From the IMG/VR virus record IMGVR_UViG_3300021376_000006: a stretch of 64,000 bases of DNA; one strand, written 5' to 3'. Numbering within the stretch: position 1 is the stretch's first letter; each line of letters starts with the position of its first letter. Both the position numbers and the translations under genes were made by a program. The DNA comes from a virus (taxonomy: Duplodnaviria > Caudoviricetes). Positions 33,028 to 39,060 of the stretch are shown here, one piece after another. The notes under the pieces are model-generated. The model ran no database searches. It was given only the letters and a program-made list of their open reading frames with translations, and was not told the DNA's origin.

Positions 33028-33318
33028 TTATTGTGCAAGCATTCTTGCTAGTCCTACTGTGTCAATTGTGACCAGTAGTAGATAATTGGCCAACATACCA
33101 AAGGAACCACGACTATAAGCACACCCAGCGTATATAGCACAACCTGTAATCCAGACTGGATACAGGACAAGAAGGGGTGGATTAGGCACGGTGAGGGCCA
33201 TAGCGATAGCACAACCAATAGATAGAGCCCAAGCCAGGACCTCAAGACAAAAACGCAATCTATGACTCGCATAATCCTGCCGGATCCATTGTGAGATTTC
33301 ATATAATATGTGATTCAT
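33028..33318 (-). CDS. Small multi-pass membrane protein
   Basis: About three hydrophobic segments. Confidence 0.78.
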   Translation of the reverse strand: MNHILYEISQWIRQDYASHRLRFCLEVLAWALSIGCAIAMALTVPNPPLLVLYPVWITGCAIYAGCAYSRGSFGMLANYLLLVTIDTVGLARMLAQ

Positions 33319-33674
33319 TAGTCTGCATGCCTGGTTAAGTAATTGATTCTAATATTTTTTGCTCCAAAATATTCTTTCACACAGCGAACGACAATATCAG
33401 AATCAAATTCTTTACAACTAAAGACGTCAAAGTATGCAGAATGGTTTGTTTCAATAAAATGACCAGTGATGGTACTTGTGGTAATAAGTTGCATCAAACT
33501 GTAGCCTTGTTTGGGATCACCGGGTAAAAGATACTCTATCACCGGATCTCCGTGTGCTGTCATATCAATGCTCTTGACTAAATTGGTAACAAATGCGTGT
33601 ATATTTGCACGACTTTTTATACCATCGTTGCAGCCAGAACAATCAAGCATCAAATGATACCCAAAGTAAGTCAT
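33318..33674 (-). CDS. speD: Pyruvoyl-dependent S-adenosylmethionine decarboxylase (SpeD)-like proenzyme
   Basis: GYHLMLD, GYS, T-S cleavage site in ITTSTITGH, DVFSCKEF. Confidence 0.75.
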   Translation of the reverse strand: MTYFGYHLMLDCSGCNDGIKSRANIHAFVTNLVKSIDMTAHGDPVIEYLLPGDPKQGYSLMQLITTSTITGHFIETNHSAYFDVFSCKEFDSDIVVRCVKEYFGAKNIRINYLTRHAD

Positions 33675-33931
33675 AGTGTTTTACCTACAGTTTGCAGAAT
33701 GGTGTTGAGTTGTTCATTTTCTGCGTTTGTTTCGCCCAGCTTGCTTTTGTGTGCAATGCGAATCGCTTTCTTTAGCACACCAGGTTTAACTTCCAATTCT
33801 TCGGCAATGGCTTTAACGGTGTCGTTGAGTCCCTCTGTGAGATCCTCAACTTCTTGCATGATAGTCATGCCTTCATTTATCAATTGTGTAAGTTTGGCTT
33901 TTTGTTCTGAACTGAACATTCTTGAACTCAT
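33671..33931 (-). CDS. Hypothetical helical protein
   Basis: 86 aa ORF with AGGAG RBS. Confidence 0.8.
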   Translation of the reverse strand: MSSRMFSSEQKAKLTQLINEGMTIMQEVEDLTEGLNDTVKAIAEELEVKPGVLKKAIRIAHKSKLGETNAENEQLNTILQTVGKTL

Positions 33932-33957: not shown

Positions 33958-33986
33958 ATTATAAACTTATACGTCAAAAATTGCAA
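33958..33986 (-). promoter_or_regulatory. Sigma70-type promoter
   Basis: TTGCAA-N17-TATAAT. Confidence 0.68.
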
Positions 33987-33992
33987 GCGATA

Positions 33993-34066
33993 TTTGCTCA
34001 CTTTCAACCTTGGGGCACGACTCCCGTGGTTGGCGCAGCAGCCGCGCACACCGGTCCTAAGGGTGT
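33993..34066 (-). ncRNA. Candidate structured non-coding RNA
   Basis: GC-rich intergenic island: CCUUAGG/CCCCAAGG closing stem, GCGC/GCGC hairpin with GGCUGCU loop, CACG/CGUG hairpin, possible loop pairing with downstream AGUGAGC. Confidence 0.5.
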
Positions 34067-34068
34067 TC

Positions 34069-34248
34069 TTATTTTTTTGGTTCGCATGTGCGAGTGCGTT
34101 GGATTGTACCATCCGCTTTGCGTTCTTCACGCCATTCTGTGCATACTTGAGTTTCTGTTCGTTCTGGTAACACTTTGTCCACAGTCCAGTTGGCTGCCAT
34201 CCAGCCCATTGCACTAAAAAATCCCCATACTAGTATTTCTGCCATCAT
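34069..34248 (-). CDS. 59 aa membrane-anchored protein
   Basis: Read manually: MMAEILVWGFFSAMGW...VCTEWREE...RTRTCEPKK; overlaps the upstream stop. Confidence 0.7.
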   Translation of the reverse strand: MMAEILVWGFFSAMGWMAANWTVDKVLPERTETQVCTEWREERKADGTIQRTRTCEPKK

Positions 34249-35399
34249 TTAGTTTGTAATAATAATTTAAGTCTTTGTTCTAGCTCTTCCCAATATACCA
34301 AATCTGCTGTTATTGGAGTGACCAATATAATTGAACTTGGAAGAAAATACGGAGTACACAATCCAGCATATTCGTAATCTTGTTTTGCCAATGATTTGTT
34401 TACTAAAAGCTCTTTAGCCAACCCGGTTCCTCGAAAACCAGTTACACCGTAATCTTTTAATTTATCAAATAAAATTTCATGTTGAATATTAATATTTTCG
34501 ACCAATTCAGAATTAAATTGTTCTAACACACAATTGGCTAAAGCTATACCAAGCATTTGCGGTTGCCAGGTATGACCGTACATGATTGAATTTTTTACAT
34601 TTGAATAAACTCTGTCATTCATCAAAGCACAACTAAGTGGAACCATGCCGCCTGTGATACTTTTTCCCATTATGTTGATATCAGGTTTTACGTTGTATTT
34701 TTGATAACTAAACGCAGGTCCTACTTTGCCAAATCCGCCCCACACATCATCTACTATCAATAATATATCTTTTTGGTCACACAACGTCCTAATTTTTTGC
34801 CACCAATTATTAGTCCATGGTCGTAAACCGTTTATCCACGGAATAGATTCCATGACAATAGTTCCTATAGAAATATCTGTATTGGTAATCTTTTCAATTA
34901 CACCAAGTAAATTAATTTCATCTTGAACTTGATCATTTGCAGGCGCTGGTAAAATTATATTGTAGTCTGACGACTTTTCTCCGCGTAGCATTCTTGCACG
35001 GTAAGTTGTACCATGATAACCAGGATAGAAGCTTATTGTCTTATTTTTTCTTGGATCAACATTTTTCCAATATTGGTCTGCAATTTCTAGTCCAGCTTCA
35101 ACACCATCACTGCCACTGACAGCATACAAAACTGCATTCATGCCACTTGTTTGCAAAAGTCGTTTGTTAACTTTTTCTACTAGATGATTTTTTTCACTTG
35201 ATCTACCGCGTAAAAACTGAACATCGCGCAATTGAGATTCAACAGCAGCAATTAAATTGGAATCGCTGTAGCCCCAAATGTATGCACTGTGTCCGCACAT
35301 TAGGTCTAAGTATTTTTTTGATTCTGTTTCGATCCAATAATCATAGGTTTTAGTAACAAAGCGGGTCGCTTCTTCGTTACAGTGTTCGACTATTTCCAT
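34245..35399 (-). CDS. Class III PLP aminotransferase (BioA/ArgD-like)
   Basis: YLDLMCG, SGSDGVE, YHGTT, LLIVDDVWGGFGKVG, PDINIMGKSITGG. Confidence 0.85.
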   Translation of the reverse strand: MEIVEHCNEEATRFVTKTYDYWIETESKKYLDLMCGHSAYIWGYSDSNLIAAVESQLRDVQFLRGRSSEKNHLVEKVNKRLLQTSGMNAVLYAVSGSDGVEAGLEIADQYWKNVDPRKNKTISFYPGYHGTTYRARMLRGEKSSDYNIILPAPANDQVQDEINLLGVIEKITNTDISIGTIVMESIPWINGLRPWTNNWWQKIRTLCDQKDILLIVDDVWGGFGKVGPAFSYQKYNVKPDINIMGKSITGGMVPLSCALMNDRVYSNVKNSIMYGHTWQPQMLGIALANCVLEQFNSELVENINIQHEILFDKLKDYGVTGFRGTGLAKELLVNKSLAKQDYEYAGLCTPYFLPSSIILVTPITADLVYWEELEQRLKLLLQTK

Positions 35400-35985
35400 A
35401 AAAATATTTTGAGGGTTGATTAATACAATCTTTGATAATTCCTACTGCTGTATTATTTAAAACAACTTCGTAATGGTTACATTCTAGTTCAACCAAATTC
35501 ATAATGTCTTCGCGTTTACGCTGACTCGATATAGTGACTACTCCGTCGTTAGGAGCAGGAATCCAAGGTGCTGATCCTTGAATAGTTACTATATTTGTCC
35601 ACGGTTTGTTAATACGTATTGATCTAGAAAGTTTCATAGCCCACGACGTGGGACCTATATCTTTCAGTAATCGACTGTAAGGTAAAAAGTACTTGGCAAC
35701 ATCCGCCACTTCCGCGCCACCGTATGGTGTACTTAGTGTTACTGCACCCAACACCTGATTTTCAAATGCGGCTGCTAGATGTAATGCGTAGATTCCGCCA
35801 AGACTATGACAAATAAAAAACATGTTTTTTTGTGCCGATAACAAATTTTTCATGTTTTCTAAGTTGACTTCGAAGCCGTTCCTGCTGTCATAATTTATGA
35901 GCAGTTCTTTGCCTTTAATTTGTTGTCGAATGTAGTTGAAACTTTCACTAGTTGCACTGGCACCGTGAATATAGACTAGAAGCAT
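35377..35985 (-). CDS. Alpha/beta hydrolase
   Basis: YIHG, HSLGG nucleophile elbow, NDGVV, NHYEV. Confidence 0.88.
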   Translation of the reverse strand: MLLVYIHGASATSESFNYIRQQIKGKELLINYDSRNGFEVNLENMKNLLSAQKNMFFICHSLGGIYALHLAAAFENQVLGAVTLSTPYGGAEVADVAKYFLPYSRLLKDIGPTSWAMKLSRSIRINKPWTNIVTIQGSAPWIPAPNDGVVTISSQRKREDIMNLVELECNHYEVVLNNTAVGIIKDCINQPSKYFYGNSRTL

Positions 35986-38279: not shown

Positions 38280-39058
38280 TTGGCATCTCCATCTTGGCCC
38301 ATTTGGCCATCAGTAGGCTCGGGTCCTGTGACTTGCACACGTGGCTGTGGTTTGCCATCTGGCCCCATTACAACTCGTTCGCTTAAAATATCTAAATATC
38401 GTCTAAAAAATCTTGGATCCATTTGTTGGTTATTTTGGTTTCTTACAGTGTCTTCTTGTACATTTCCGCCGCTATTAGTTTTTGTTTGTGCTGCTGGTTG
38501 AGCTGGTGGTTGAGGTTTGGCTGCGGCTGTAGGTGCTGCTGGTTGAGGTGCTGTTGCTGGTTGAGCTGGTTTAGCTGCGGCTGTAGGTGCTGCTGGTTGA
38601 GCTGGTTGTGTATCTAATACACGATTTATAGCATCAGCTGCTTTTGGTTGAGCCGGTTGAGCTGGTGCTGCTGTTGGTTGAGCTGGTGATGCAGCAACAT
38701 CATCATCTTTATACTGACTAAAATCAGGTTTTTGCGTAGGTTGTGTTTCTGGTGCTCTTCCCACACCAGCTAGTGCTAATCTTTTCTCTACGGTGTTCAG
38801 ATCTTGTTGCATGTCGCCAACTATGCTGTTTACTCTAGGATCAGTATAAGTTATTTGGTTCGGTCCACCTGTTGTTAAACTTTTATCAGTTTGCAAGGTA
38901 CCTGCTAATTTCTCTCTACTCTGTATGTCTTGTTGATTGGGTTGAATACCCAGTTGTGGCACTCCACCTTGACGGTACTCAGTGCCAGCAATATCCAACG
39001 GTGGTTGGGACTGCTCACTGAGAATGTCTAAATATCGTCTAAAAAATCTTGGATCCAT
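38276..39058 (-). CDS. Pro/Ala/Gln-rich protein with duplicated MDPRFFRRYLDILSE leader
   Basis: Leader at N-terminus and again near C-terminus; PAQP and AAPTAAAKP repeats. Confidence 0.78.
   Translation of the reverse strand: MDPRFFRRYLDILSEQSQPPLDIAGTEYRQGGVPQLGIQPNQQDIQSREKLAGTLQTDKSLTTGGPNQITYTDPRVNSIVGDMQQDLNTVEKRLALAGVGRAPETQPTQKPDFSQYKDDDVAASPAQPTAAPAQPAQPKAADAINRVLDTQPAQPAAPTAAAKPAQPATAPQPAAPTAAAKPQPPAQPAAQTKTNSGGNVQEDTVRNQNNQQMDPRFFRRYLDILSERVVMGPDGKPQPRVQVTGPEPTDGQMGQDGDAK
38391..38424. repeat. 34 bp exact direct repeat, copy 1
   Basis: TCTAAATATCGTCTAAAAAATCTTGGATCCATTT, identical to 39027-39060. Confidence 0.95.
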
Positions 39059-39060
39059 TT
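39027..39060. repeat. 34 bp exact direct repeat, copy 2
   Basis: Identical to 38391-38424. Confidence 0.95.

What the first reader, a model, noticed from the sequence alone, without database searches (positions are those of the whole stretch)
33993..34066. Compact GC-rich structured RNA candidate with three-way junction and possible pseudoknot
Seen (minus strand): ACACCCUUAGGACCGGUGUGCGCGGCUGCUGCGCCAACCACGGGAGUCGUGCCCCAAGGUUGAAAGUGAGCAA, starting 2-3 nt after a stop codon and ending just before the -35 box of the next promoter. Closing stem, two hairpins, and loop GCUGCU able to pair with AGUGAGC. Not a terminator (no U tract) and not tRNA-shaped. Inference: a small self-cleaving ribozyme, nuclease-resistant 3' element or independent sRNA that I cannot assign to a known family.
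Basis: partly seen in the sequence, partly recalled or inferred. Interest (0 to 1): 0.7.

Follow-up and report, generated by a model that had tools for sequence, protein, structure and literature searches.

The report
Pseudoknotted phage RNA complementary to 23S
The GC-rich spacer is one copy of an undescribed, single-copy folded RNA shared by hundreds of uncultured lake-water giant phages; its most conserved exposed loop is the exact complement of a universally conserved stretch of bacterial 23S ribosomal RNA, so it may act on the host ribosome.

Summary
The element is real and lies on the minus (gene-sense) strand at 33992-34071. It belongs to a large RNA family in uncultured lake-water T4-like/jumbo phages, with more than 250 distinct sequences collected here and one copy per genome. 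No Rfam family matches, and I found no paper describing it.

The fold is three consecutive hairpins, P1, P2 and P3. The P2 loop GCUGCU also pairs with the 3' tail AGUGAGC to form a pseudoknot. Covariation supports all three stems and the pseudoknot.

Its closing stem, three-way junction and CACG/CGUG hairpin are not supported. Its ribozyme idea remains untested.

The element starts at the stop codon of the upstream gene, has no promoter of its own, and ends 8 nt before the next promoter. This places it at the 3' end of a transcription unit.

Its near-invariant P1 loop, ACCUUAGGACCG in the family consensus, is the exact antisense of 23S rRNA 1920-1931 (helix 69/70). This window's copy reads CCCUUAGGACCG and matches 11 nt. 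The commonest P3 loop complements the adjacent bases 1929-1937. The apparent match of the P2 loop to the 16S 530 loop is explained by the internal pseudoknot.

A weak ArcZ-like look on the plus strand is coincidence.

The function is inferred. The most likely reading is a trans-acting RNA that pairs with host 23S rRNA. This scan has noted the same family before on other DNA.

The parts
33992..34071 (-). Whole RNA element: three hairpins plus a 3' tail.
   Evidence: Covariance model R1, built from 11 relatives that do not include the window, scores 86.5 bits (E 1.6e-28). It is the only hit in the 64 kb window.
34065..34071 (-). Stop codon UAA of the upstream 59-aa ORF, overlapping the conserved 5' flank (A)AGAAC that runs into P1.
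   Evidence: ORF 34069-34248. The flank is at least 60% conserved in alignment A4. In relatives the stop codon, whether TAA, TAG or TGA, abuts or overlaps it.
34048..34066 (-). Hairpin P1: ACACC (34066-34062) pairs with GGUGU (34052-34048). The 9-nt loop CUUAGGACC (L1) is at 34061-34053.
   Evidence: All 6 model pairs of P1 show double-sided changes across 89 relatives. Examples are ACACAC/GUGUGU, CUUCAC/GUGAAG and ACUCG/CGAGU.
34052..34062 (-). L1 core CCUUAGGACC plus the following G, the near-invariant recognition loop. It is the exact antisense of E. coli 23S rRNA 1920-1930 in this window. In the consensus form ACCUUAGGACCG the match covers 1920-1931.
   Evidence: Exact 12-nt match of the consensus. 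The predicted duplex is -22.1 kcal/mol, z -4.1, with 0 of 20 shuffles as good. L1 is unchanged in 97 of 114 sequences collected without constraining it.
34033..34047 (-). Hairpin P2: GCGC (34047-34044) pairs with GCGC (34036-34033). The 7-nt loop GGCUGCU (L2) is at 34043-34037.
   Evidence: P2 is 99.2% paired, and 3 of 4 pairs show double-sided changes: GCGC, AGCC/GGCU, GGGC/GCCC, GCCC/GGGC.
34006..34031 (-). Hairpin P3: outer stem AACC (34031-34028) pairs with GGUU (34009-34006). Inner stem GG (34024-34023) pairs with CC (34015-34014). Apical loop AGUCGUG is at 34022-34016 (class A loop).
   Evidence: All 4 outer pairs show double-sided changes: ACCC/GGGU, AUCC/GGAU, ACUC/GAGU. The apical loop comes in classes; class B, AUUCGCUAC, is the commonest.
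33995..34004 (-). Conserved 3' tail AAAGUGAGCA. AGUGAGC (34002-33996) pairs with L2 GCUGCU (34042-34037), with G33999 bulged, to form the pseudoknot.
   Evidence: L2 variants carry matching tails: GCCUGCU with AGUGAGG, GACUGCU with AGUGAGU, and GGCUACU with AGUAGC, AGUGGC or GUGUAGC. The pair L2-G2:tail-C8 reads GC 34, CG 3, AU 2, with none unpaired.
33958..33986 (-). Sigma70-like promoter TTGCAA-17-TATAAT of the downstream gene. It is context, not part of the RNA.
   Evidence: It is conserved as TTGCAA-17-TACAAT in the relative L002. A -35 hexamer starting about 8 nt after the tail is the commonest arrangement in relatives.
33671..33931 (-). Downstream 86-aa gene, a relative of T4 DsbA-type dsDNA-binding late-transcription proteins (context).
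   Evidence: PHROG 639 'transcriptional regulator', E 8.8e-10. The Pfam Phage_DsbA hit is below its cut-off, 18.5 against 25 bits. A relative is annotated DsbA in phage MIJ3.

Best explanation
The spacer encodes one member of an undescribed, single-copy RNA family of uncultured freshwater T4-like/jumbo phages.

Shown:
- The RNA is read on the gene-sense (minus) strand.
- It folds into three consecutive hairpins, P1, P2 and P3.
- The P2 loop pairs with the 3' tail to form a pseudoknot that encloses P3.
- P1 presents a near-invariant loop, CCUUAGGACC, which contains a YUNR-type CUUA.
- The element has no conserved promoter of its own. It starts at the stop codon of the upstream gene and is followed at once by the next promoter, a terminator or a convergent gene.

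Inferred:
- It is made as the 3' end of the upstream transcript and may be trimmed out of it.
- It acts in trans. The exposed P1 loop pairs with the universally conserved 23S rRNA stretch 1920-1931, which forms the 3' strand of helix 69 and the start of helix 70.
- In most family members the P3 loop pairs with the adjacent 1929-1937.
- These bases are buried in mature 70S ribosomes, so binding would be to nascent or immature 23S rRNA or to free 50S subunits. Through this the phage would interfere with, or exploit, large-subunit maturation or subunit joining.
For: Family and structure:
A further 114 distinct sequences came from lake metagenomes.
- On 89 distinct sequences, 94.2% of cells are paired against 63.3% in shuffles and 31-44% with slid partners. 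The covariation score is 0.604 against 0.157 (0 of 500 shuffles). 15 of 16 pairs show double-sided changes.

Strand:
- G.U pairs number 67 against 12 A.C pairs.
- The element always lies on the same strand as the flanking genes.

Pseudoknot:
- Independent compensatory changes.

Copy number:
- One copy in the window.
- One per locus in 91 of 91 loci.
- One strong copy in each of three complete 330-365 kb phage genomes.

Position:
- No information in the 60 nt upstream.
- 85 of 135 downstream flanks carry a promoter-like motif, against about 21 in shuffles.
- A terminator follows in L290 and L277.

Target:
- The consensus L1 is an exact 12-nt antisense of 23S 1920-1931. The class-B P3 loop is antisense of 1929-1937 and class-D loops of 1968-1978.
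- An 8-mer footprint of all 136 sequences on the E. coli rrn operon peaks only in antisense orientation, on 23S 1911-1937 and 16S 517-529.
- The L1 duplex has z -4.1.
- Subfamilies extend the complementarity in different directions: CUACC on the 5' side, GUUAU on the 3' side, and AAGGUAGCGA in the paralogue L695.
- The recurrent L1 variants A-to-G keep a G.U pair with 23S U1923 or U1926.
- No complementary site exists elsewhere in the window or in four large phage genomes, three of them complete.
Against: - There is no expression data. No RNA run holds the region, so the ends, the processing and even the existence of a discrete RNA are unshown.
- The 23S bases concerned are base-paired within helices 69 and 70 of mature ribosomes.
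- Only L1 stands out energetically. The P3 loops pair no better with rRNA than shuffled loops do (z -1.1 and -0.9). P3 loops of classes A (this window's), C and E have no convincing rRNA site.
- The equally striking 16S match of L2 turned out to be explained by the internal pseudoknot. This shows that a 9-10 nt match to rRNA can mislead.
- In some subfamilies the 5' half of L1 is paired in cis: CCUUA with UAAGG, CCCUA with UAGGG, and CCUUAGG with CCUAAGG in class E.
- Some L1 variants break the pairing with 23S: CCUUAUGACC and CCCUAGGACC.
- A paralogue lacks the GGACC half of L1.
- Why a lytic phage would bind 23S rRNA is unclear.
Confidence: 0.4

Rival explanations
1. It is a cis-acting boundary element of a transcription unit. 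The pseudoknotted fold would stop or attenuate read-through into the next promoter, or shield the upstream mRNA's 3' end from exonucleases, much as the stem-loops of PeSL cassettes do. The likeness to 23S rRNA would be a relic of a captured rDNA fragment with no function of its own.
For: - The element sits between a stop codon and the next promoter in nearly all contexts.
- PeSL cassettes of T4-type phages combine a stem-loop terminator with a strong early promoter in the same kind of spacer (PMC2839356).
- A run of U often follows the tail.
Against: - It is single-copy per genome, whereas a general boundary signal should recur at many operon ends. PeSLs are multi-copy.
- About 24 unpaired bases are near-invariant across very divergent phages, which a terminator or protective fold does not need.
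- A separate intrinsic terminator follows it in L290 and L277.
- The stems drift freely while L1 stays fixed, so L1 is under selection and is not a relic.
Confidence: 0.22
2. It is a protein-binding RNA. The invariant loops would be the binding site of a phage or host RNA-binding protein, acting as a regulator, decoy or scaffold. The complementarity to rRNA would be incidental.
For: - Strong conservation of loop sequences whether they are unpaired or partly paired in cis.
- The motif CUACC recurs both next to L1 and in the P3 loop of many members.
- L1 contains an AGGA in a loop, as CsrA-type sites do (from knowledge, not tested).
Against: - No protein gene travels with it. The neighbours differ widely.
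- It does not explain why different subfamilies lengthen the complementarity to 23S in different directions.
- It does not explain why two loops map to adjacent 23S bases.
Confidence: 0.15
3. It is a small self-cleaving ribozyme or an exonuclease-resistant RNA.
For: - It is a compact pseudoknotted fold with invariant unpaired bases, directly after a stop codon. Viral exonuclease-resistant RNAs sit in a similar position.
- The conserved 5' flank AAGAAC could mark a processing site.
Against: - No match to any ribozyme or other family in Rfam 15, even at E up to 10.
- Neither idea explains the rRNA complementarity or the single copy number.
Confidence: 0.08
4. The functional strand is the plus strand. 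It would encode either an ArcZ-like Hfq-dependent sRNA (seed hairpin, terminator hairpin and U-tract at 34031-34080) or an rRNA mimic that displays 23S helix 69-70 and 16S 530-loop sequences as decoys.
For: - Weak Rfam ArcZ hit on the plus strand, 19.7 bits, E 0.049 for a 351-nt search.
- The plus strand reads UGGCGCAGCAGCCGCGCACACCGGUCC, followed by a hairpin and UUAUUUUUUU. This resembles E. coli ArcZ and its overlap with the arcB stop codon.
Against: - The score is far below the gathering score of 66 bits.
- The ArcZ-like letters lie in stems P1 and P2. These covary to other sequences in relatives, so the likeness vanishes there.
- Bacterial ArcZ cores are nearly invariant and confined to Enterobacterales, whereas this phage comes from lake water.
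- G.U pairs outnumber A.C pairs 67 to 12, which favours the minus strand.
- The element is always co-oriented with its flanking genes.
Confidence: 0.03
5. It is a single-stranded DNA structure, such as a priming or initiation signal at a replication origin. This would fit its single copy and its frequent position beside replication genes.
For: - One copy per genome.
- In about a third of phages it lies next to the dsbA-like gene and the DNA polymerase cluster.
- G.T pairs are tolerated in DNA hairpins.
Against: - In most phages it lies elsewhere, among unrelated genes.
- A pseudoknot with a bulge and invariant loops is typical of RNA.
- The idea gives no reason for the 23S complementarity.
Confidence: 0.05

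Closest known systems
Loop-presenting antisense RNAs (CopA/CopT of plasmid R1, RNA I/RNA II of ColE1), which use YUNR U-turn loops
   Same: - A short structured RNA offers a conserved hairpin loop for fast pairing with a complementary target. The loop here contains a YUNR-type motif, CUUA.
- In long-form relatives the hairpin next to the loop mirrors the target's own hairpin, helix 69.
   Different: - Those RNAs are transcribed from the strand opposite their target gene and are fully complementary to it.
- Here the presumed target, host 23S rRNA, is encoded in another genome. Complementarity is limited to 10-15 nt per loop, and the two loops are in permuted order relative to the target.
- Pairing has not been shown.
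3'-UTR-derived bacterial small RNAs (for example CpxQ, SroC, DapZ)
   Same: It lies directly after a stop codon, has no conserved promoter of its own, and would be released from or act as the tail of the upstream mRNA.
   Different: - Those sRNAs use a linear seed, Hfq and the mRNA's own intrinsic terminator.
- This element is a pseudoknotted three-hairpin fold, usually without a terminator of its own.
- No mRNA target is evident.
PeSL (promoter-early stem-loop) cassettes of T4-type phages (PMC2839356)
   Same: An intergenic stem-loop sits between a stop codon and a strong sigma70-like early promoter in a T4-like genome. In this window the -35 hexamer starts 8 nt after the tail.
   Different: - PeSLs are many near-identical copies per genome with a simple G-run/C-run hairpin. 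They serve as terminators and recombination sites.
- This element is single-copy, with three covarying stems, a pseudoknot and invariant loops. In other phages it precedes late-type promoters, terminators or convergent genes.
ArcZ sRNA (Rfam RF00081)
   Same: On the plus strand the window's copy happens to resemble the ArcZ seed hairpin, terminator and U-tract.
   Different: - The score is 19.7 bits against a gathering score of 66.
- It is on the wrong strand by the G.U evidence.
- The likeness is absent from relatives.
- The phage's habitat is not that of Enterobacterales.
Ribosome-binding 3' elements of RNA viruses (TURBS motif of caliciviruses, which pairs with 18S rRNA; the tRNA-shaped 3' element of turnip crinkle virus, which binds the large subunit). 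From knowledge, not tested here.
   Same: A viral element placed after a stop codon that contacts ribosomal RNA or the large subunit. The turnip crinkle virus element is built of hairpins and pseudoknots.
   Different: - Those are eukaryotic systems with a shown role in re-initiation or translation enhancement.
- Here the next gene usually has its own promoter.
- No ribosome binding is shown.

Membership tests
ArcZ (RF00081) | Covariance-model score at or above Rfam's gathering score (66 bits). | tested here: not met
   19.7 bits, E 0.049, on a 351-nt search. There is no hit at the gathering threshold.
ArcZ (RF00081) | Near-invariant 3' core UUUCCCUGGUGUUGGCGCAGUAUUCGCGCACCCCGG. | tested here: not met
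   About 120 Enterobacterales loci keep this core almost unchanged. The phage differs by a 2-nt deletion and 4 of 26 core bases, and its relatives differ far more.
ArcZ (RF00081) | The structure is supported on the strand that carries the sRNA. | tested here: not met
   G.U against A.C is 67 to 12, which favours the opposite (minus) strand.
Known self-cleaving ribozymes (hammerhead, twister, twister-sister, pistol, hatchet, HDV-like) | A match to the family covariance model. | tested here: not met
   No match up to E 10 on the region, and none at gathering score on the window or on 10 diverse relatives.
Known self-cleaving ribozymes | Site-specific self-cleavage. | not testable with these tools
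   This needs an in-vitro transcription and cleavage assay.
tRNA / tmRNA | Cloverleaf or tRNA-like domain detected by ARAGORN. | tested here: not met
   No gene in the window.
PeSL cassettes | A stem-loop adjacent to a strong sigma70-like early promoter in the spacer between a stop codon and the next start codon. | tested here: met
   TTGCAA-17-TATAAT starts 8 nt after the tail. The same arrangement occurs in 54 of 135 relatives.
PeSL cassettes | Many near-identical copies per genome, flanking variable genes. | tested here: not met
   One copy in the 64 kb window and one strong copy in each complete genome.
PeSL cassettes | The stem-loop acts as a transcription terminator. | not testable with these tools
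   No U-tract directly follows a stem. The weak terminator-like hairpin at 34001..33983 is not conserved in L002.
Loop-presenting antisense RNAs | An exposed hairpin loop with a YUNR motif that is complementary to its target. | tested here: met
   L1 lies in the loop of covariation-supported P1 and contains CUUA. The consensus is a 12-nt exact complement of 23S 1920-1931. In some subfamilies half of L1 is paired in cis.
Loop-presenting antisense RNAs | Demonstrated pairing with, and control of, the target. | not testable with these tools
   No binding or genetic data exist, and no RNA-seq run holds the region.
3'-UTR-derived sRNAs | Lies directly after the stop codon and lacks its own conserved promoter. 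| tested here: met
   The stop codon abuts P1. No information is found in the 60 nt upstream across 88 contexts.
3'-UTR-derived sRNAs | A discrete stable RNA species with defined ends. | not testable with these tools
   No RNA run is listed for this DNA.

The most novel reading that the evidence does not exclude
A phage-encoded small RNA that base-pairs directly with host ribosomal RNA. It would bind the helix 69-70 junction of 23S rRNA, at the heart of the subunit interface, and so block, mark or hijack large-subunit maturation or subunit joining during infection. Hundreds of uncultured freshwater giant phages would share this device. No natural regulatory RNA aimed at rRNA is known from phages.
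Probability: 0.35. Interest if true: 0.85.

Novelty: new variant of a known kind. Interest (0 to 1): 0.65.

Why it matters
If the RNA does pair with 23S rRNA, it would be the first phage regulatory RNA whose target is the ribosome's own RNA. The site it would hit is one that antibiotics and engineered antisense oligomers also aim at. That would open a new chapter in how viruses control host translation.

The idea can be tested directly, because the target is universal and the RNA is only about 80 nt long.

Even if that reading fails, this is an abundant, well-defined and strongly covarying RNA family of giant freshwater phages. It is absent from Rfam and would be worth a family entry and structural study.

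Tried and rejected
1. ArcZ-like sRNA on the plus strand. This was my first lead. I rejected it once relatives showed that the ArcZ-like letters are covarying stem bases, that G.U counts favour the other strand, and that the phage comes from lake water.
2. L2 as antisense of the 16S 530 loop (10-nt match). Rejected as a functional target, because L2 variants are compensated by the element's own tail and the duplex is unexceptional (z -1.7).
3. No covariation supports them.
4. P3 loops as strong rRNA binders. Their best sites for classes B and D fall beside the L1 site, but the energies are no better than for shuffled loops. Classes A, C and E have no convincing site.
5. A complementary target inside the phage. 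There is none in the window, in 331 loci, or in four large genomes, three of them complete.
6. Expression data. No RNA holder is listed for this DNA.
7. Cultured relatives. Phosso, PA5oct and Atu_ph07 gave no hit with R1. This is weak evidence of absence only. blastn of the region against 50,697 phage records found nothing.
8. Repeats. The element is not repeated in the window.
9. Programmed frameshift or bypass at the A-run before the stop codon. Dropped because the flanking ORFs are unrelated in different phages.
10. The pattern scans were mostly chance matches. I kept only hits with a P2 stem.
11. Literature. No paper with the loop sequences describes such an RNA. The catalogue of PMC10690425 may list it unnamed, but its supplements are not held.

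Full report
**What is at the coordinates**

- It begins 2 nt after the TAA stop (34069-34071) of a 59-aa ORF.
- It ends 6 nt before the -35 hexamer of a sigma70-like promoter, TTGCAA-17-TATAAT at 33986..33958. This promoter precedes an 86-aa gene related to T4 DsbA-type proteins.
- The stretch is a GC island of 0.59 in a background of 0.3-0.45.
- It is unique in the window, is not a tRNA, and matches no Rfam family at gathering score.
- As a single sequence it folds no better than shuffles (z -0.22 on the minus strand, -1.76 on the plus strand).

**The phage**

- The window belongs to an AT-rich giant phage. Its DNA polymerase is at most 50% identical to those of Sinorhizobium phage Phosso, Agrobacterium phage Atu_ph07 and the Rak2/GAP32-like jumbo phages.
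- The same DNA is held by about 20 lake-water metagenome runs.
- No whole genome is held for the window.

**A false lead: ArcZ**

- A permissive Rfam search gave a weak ArcZ hit on the plus strand, 19.7 bits against a gathering score of 66.
- The plus strand does look like the ArcZ seed hairpin, followed by a terminator hairpin and a U-tract. The U-tract overlaps a convergent stop codon, as arcZ does with arcB in E. coli.
- A pattern built from the shared letters found only Enterobacterales arcZ in the 120 genome loci returned.
- I abandoned this reading when relatives of the phage became available, as described below.

**Relatives**

- Two IMG/VR contigs carry the exact core. One is identical to the window. 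The other (L002) has flanking genes only about 80% identical but an element with just three changes.
- The downstream 86-aa gene has more than 589 relatives in IMG/VR. Upstream of it, many loci carry a visibly related but diverged element.
- A lake-metagenome scan that left the first word free gave 114 more.
- A covariance model built from 11 relatives, not including the window, finds:
  - the window's copy at 86.5 bits (E 1.6e-28), and nothing else in 64 kb;
  - one copy in each of 91 loci;
  - one strong copy in each of three complete 330-365 kb phage genomes with terminal repeats.
- Three cultured relatives gave no hit.

**Structure**

The family folds as three consecutive hairpins.

| Element | Window coordinates (minus strand) | Sequence |
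|---|---|---|
| P1 stem | 34066-34062 with 34052-34048 | ACACC / GGUGU |
| L1 loop | 34061-34053 | CUUAGGACC |
| P2 stem | 34047-34044 with 34036-34033 | GCGC / GCGC |
| L2 loop | 34043-34037 | GGCUGCU |
| P3 outer stem | 34031-34028 with 34009-34006 | AACC / GGUU |
| P3 inner part | 34025-34013 | GGGAGUCGUGCCC |
| 3' tail | 34004-33995 | AAAGUGAGCA |

- On 89 distinct sequences, 94.2% of cells are paired, against 63.3% in shuffles and 31-44% when partners are slid.
- 15 of 16 pairs show changes on both sides. The covariation score is 0.604 against 0.157, with 0 of 500 shuffles as high.
- That alignment was fitted to the model, which favours it somewhat. The ungapped alignment of close relatives gives the same picture, with 99.4% paired.
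There is therefore no three-way junction.

**Strand**

- In the stems, G.U and U.G pairs number 67 and A.C and C.A pairs number 12. This fits an RNA read on the minus strand.
- The element is always on the same strand as its neighbouring genes.
- This evidence, the covariation of the very letters that made the plus strand look like ArcZ (GCGC becomes AGCC, GGGC or GCCC; ACACC becomes CUUCAC or ACUCG), and the freshwater origin together dispose of the ArcZ reading.

**Pseudoknot**

- I searched for relatives with a changed L2 and kept only hits with an intact P2 stem.
  - L2 GCCUGCU always comes with tail AGUGAGG.
  - L2 GACUGCU comes with AGUGAGU.
  - L2 GGCUACU comes with AGUAGC, AGUGGC or GUGUAGC. 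Each of these restores five or six continuous pairs.
- L167 combines two changes, GACUACU with AGUAGU.
- In a model-based alignment of 39 such sequences, the pair L2-G2:tail-C8 reads GC 34, CG 3 and AU 2, with none unpaired. That set was enriched for L2 variants but was not selected on the tail.

**Position**

- The stop codon of the upstream ORF, whichever gene that is, lies 0-6 nt before P1. It overlaps a conserved (A)AGAAC flank.
- The 60 nt upstream carry no conserved motif.
- After the tail comes one of the following:
  - a sigma70-like promoter, in 54 of 135 flanks, with the -35 hexamer usually 8 nt after the tail;
  - a T4-late-like TAAATA motif, in 33 of 135;
  - an intrinsic terminator, in L290 and L277;
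  - a convergent gene.
- About 21 of 135 promoter-like hits are expected from shuffles.
- The element therefore closes a transcription unit and has no promoter of its own. The neighbouring genes differ widely between phages, which argues against a gene-specific cis-regulator.

**The rRNA connection**

- Against the E. coli rrn operon, the consensus L1 with its flanks (ACCUUAGGACCG) is an exact antisense of 23S 1920-1931. The window has C in place of the first A.
- The commonest P3 loop (class B, GAUUCGCUACC) is antisense of 1929-1937, directly adjacent.
- Class D loops are antisense of 1968-1978.
- L2 with its closing pair is antisense of 16S 518-527.
- An 8-mer footprint of all 136 sequences on the operon peaks only in antisense orientation, on 23S 1911-1937 and 16S 517-529.
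- Only L1 stands out energetically, at -22.1 kcal/mol, z -4.1, with 0 of 20 shuffles as good. The P3 loops and L2 do not.
- The L2 match is explained by the pseudoknot, since L2 varies together with the tail while 16S rRNA does not vary. I count it as coincidence.
- The L1 match is harder to dismiss:
  - L1 is unchanged in 97 of 114 sequences gathered without constraining it.
  - Its recurrent A-to-G variants keep a G.U pair with 23S U1923 or U1926.
  - Subfamilies lengthen the complementarity in different directions: CUACC on the 5' side, GUUAU on the 3' side. A neighbouring hairpin resembles the antisense of helix 69.
  - A second, diverged copy in one genome has lost GGACC, but its P3 loop complements 23S 1927-1936.
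  - Neither the window nor the large phage genomes searched (three of them complete) hold any other complementary site.
- Against a simple picture:
  - In some subfamilies the 5' half of L1 is paired in cis, with its own compensatory change of CCCUA with UAGGG.
  - A few variants would break the 23S pairing.
  - The window's own class A P3 loop has no convincing rRNA site.
  - The 23S bases concerned are paired in mature ribosomes.

**Reading**

- Shown: a real, widespread, single-copy, pseudoknotted RNA fold on the gene-sense strand at the end of a transcription unit. It is absent from Rfam and from the papers I could search. The large catalogue of PMC10690425 may contain it unnamed, but its supplements are not held.
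- Inferred: it acts in trans through L1 on nascent or immature 23S rRNA or on free 50S subunits. I put this at about 0.4.
- The main rival is a boundary or 3'-end element like the stem-loops of PeSL cassettes (PMC2839356). This explains the position, but not the single copy or the invariant loops.
- A protein-binding RNA, a ribozyme or nuclease-resistant RNA, a DNA-level origin signal and a plus-strand RNA are less likely.
- No RNA-seq data exist for this DNA, so no reading is confirmed by expression.

**Earlier notes of this scan**

After I had reached this reading, a look-up showed that other windows of this scan hold the same family. Follow-up agents there came to similar conclusions: an undescribed pseudoknotted phage RNA that may be antisense to 23S helix 69-70, with part of the rRNA likeness explained by internal pairing, and PeSL as the closest known arrangement. 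I checked the PeSL comparison in the paper and tested the internal-pairing point myself. It holds for L2 and the 16S match. It does not hold for L1 and the 23S match.

Noticed in passing
window 34031-34080 (+): The plus strand imitates the ArcZ seed hairpin, terminator hairpin and U-tract, and even overlaps a convergent stop codon as arcZ does with arcB. This is a coincidence created by the GC-rich stems P1 and P2 and the lysine codons before the stop.
   Followed up: yes
window 33318-33674 (-), 34245-35399 (-), 35377-35985 (-): An S-adenosylmethionine decarboxylase gene (Pfam AdoMet_dc, E 1.8e-18), a class-III aminotransferase gene (E 1.6e-45) and a 202-aa ORF that I did not annotate surround the element. 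The first two may be polyamine-related auxiliary metabolic genes of a giant phage.
   Followed up: partly
relatives, e.g. L135, L192, L212, L225, directly after the tail: In many relatives the tail runs straight into a T4-late-like motif (G/C)ATAAATA(C). The next ATG follows only 5-12 nt later, with no Shine-Dalgarno sequence. This suggests very short-leadered late mRNAs in these phages.
   Followed up: partly
L695:89-170 (+) (genome G002, 76938-77019): A second, diverged copy of the element in one complete 353 kb phage genome. It keeps P2, the pseudoknot and a class-B-like P3 loop, but has lost the GGACC half of L1.
   Followed up: partly
class E relatives L222, L314, L330, L280: In these members CCUUAGG of L1 is paired in cis with a downstream CCUAAGG. 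This cis partner is a copy of the presumed 23S target, and it replaces the usual P1 stem.
   Followed up: no
window 38379-38424 and 39015-39060; 38486-38694: A 46-nt direct repeat, 91% identical, with copies 636 nt apart. Between the copies is a run of GCTGGTTGAG-like short repeats, probably inside a repetitive coding region.
   Followed up: no
window 34069-34248 (-): The 59-aa ORF just upstream has no Pfam or PHROG family. It is conserved, with a C-terminal RTCEPKK, in all class-A relatives, where it always precedes the element.
   Followed up: partly
L268:35-44 (+): This is the only locus with a second GGTCCTAAGG, in sense orientation, about 6.4 kb from the element. It may be chance.
   Followed up: no
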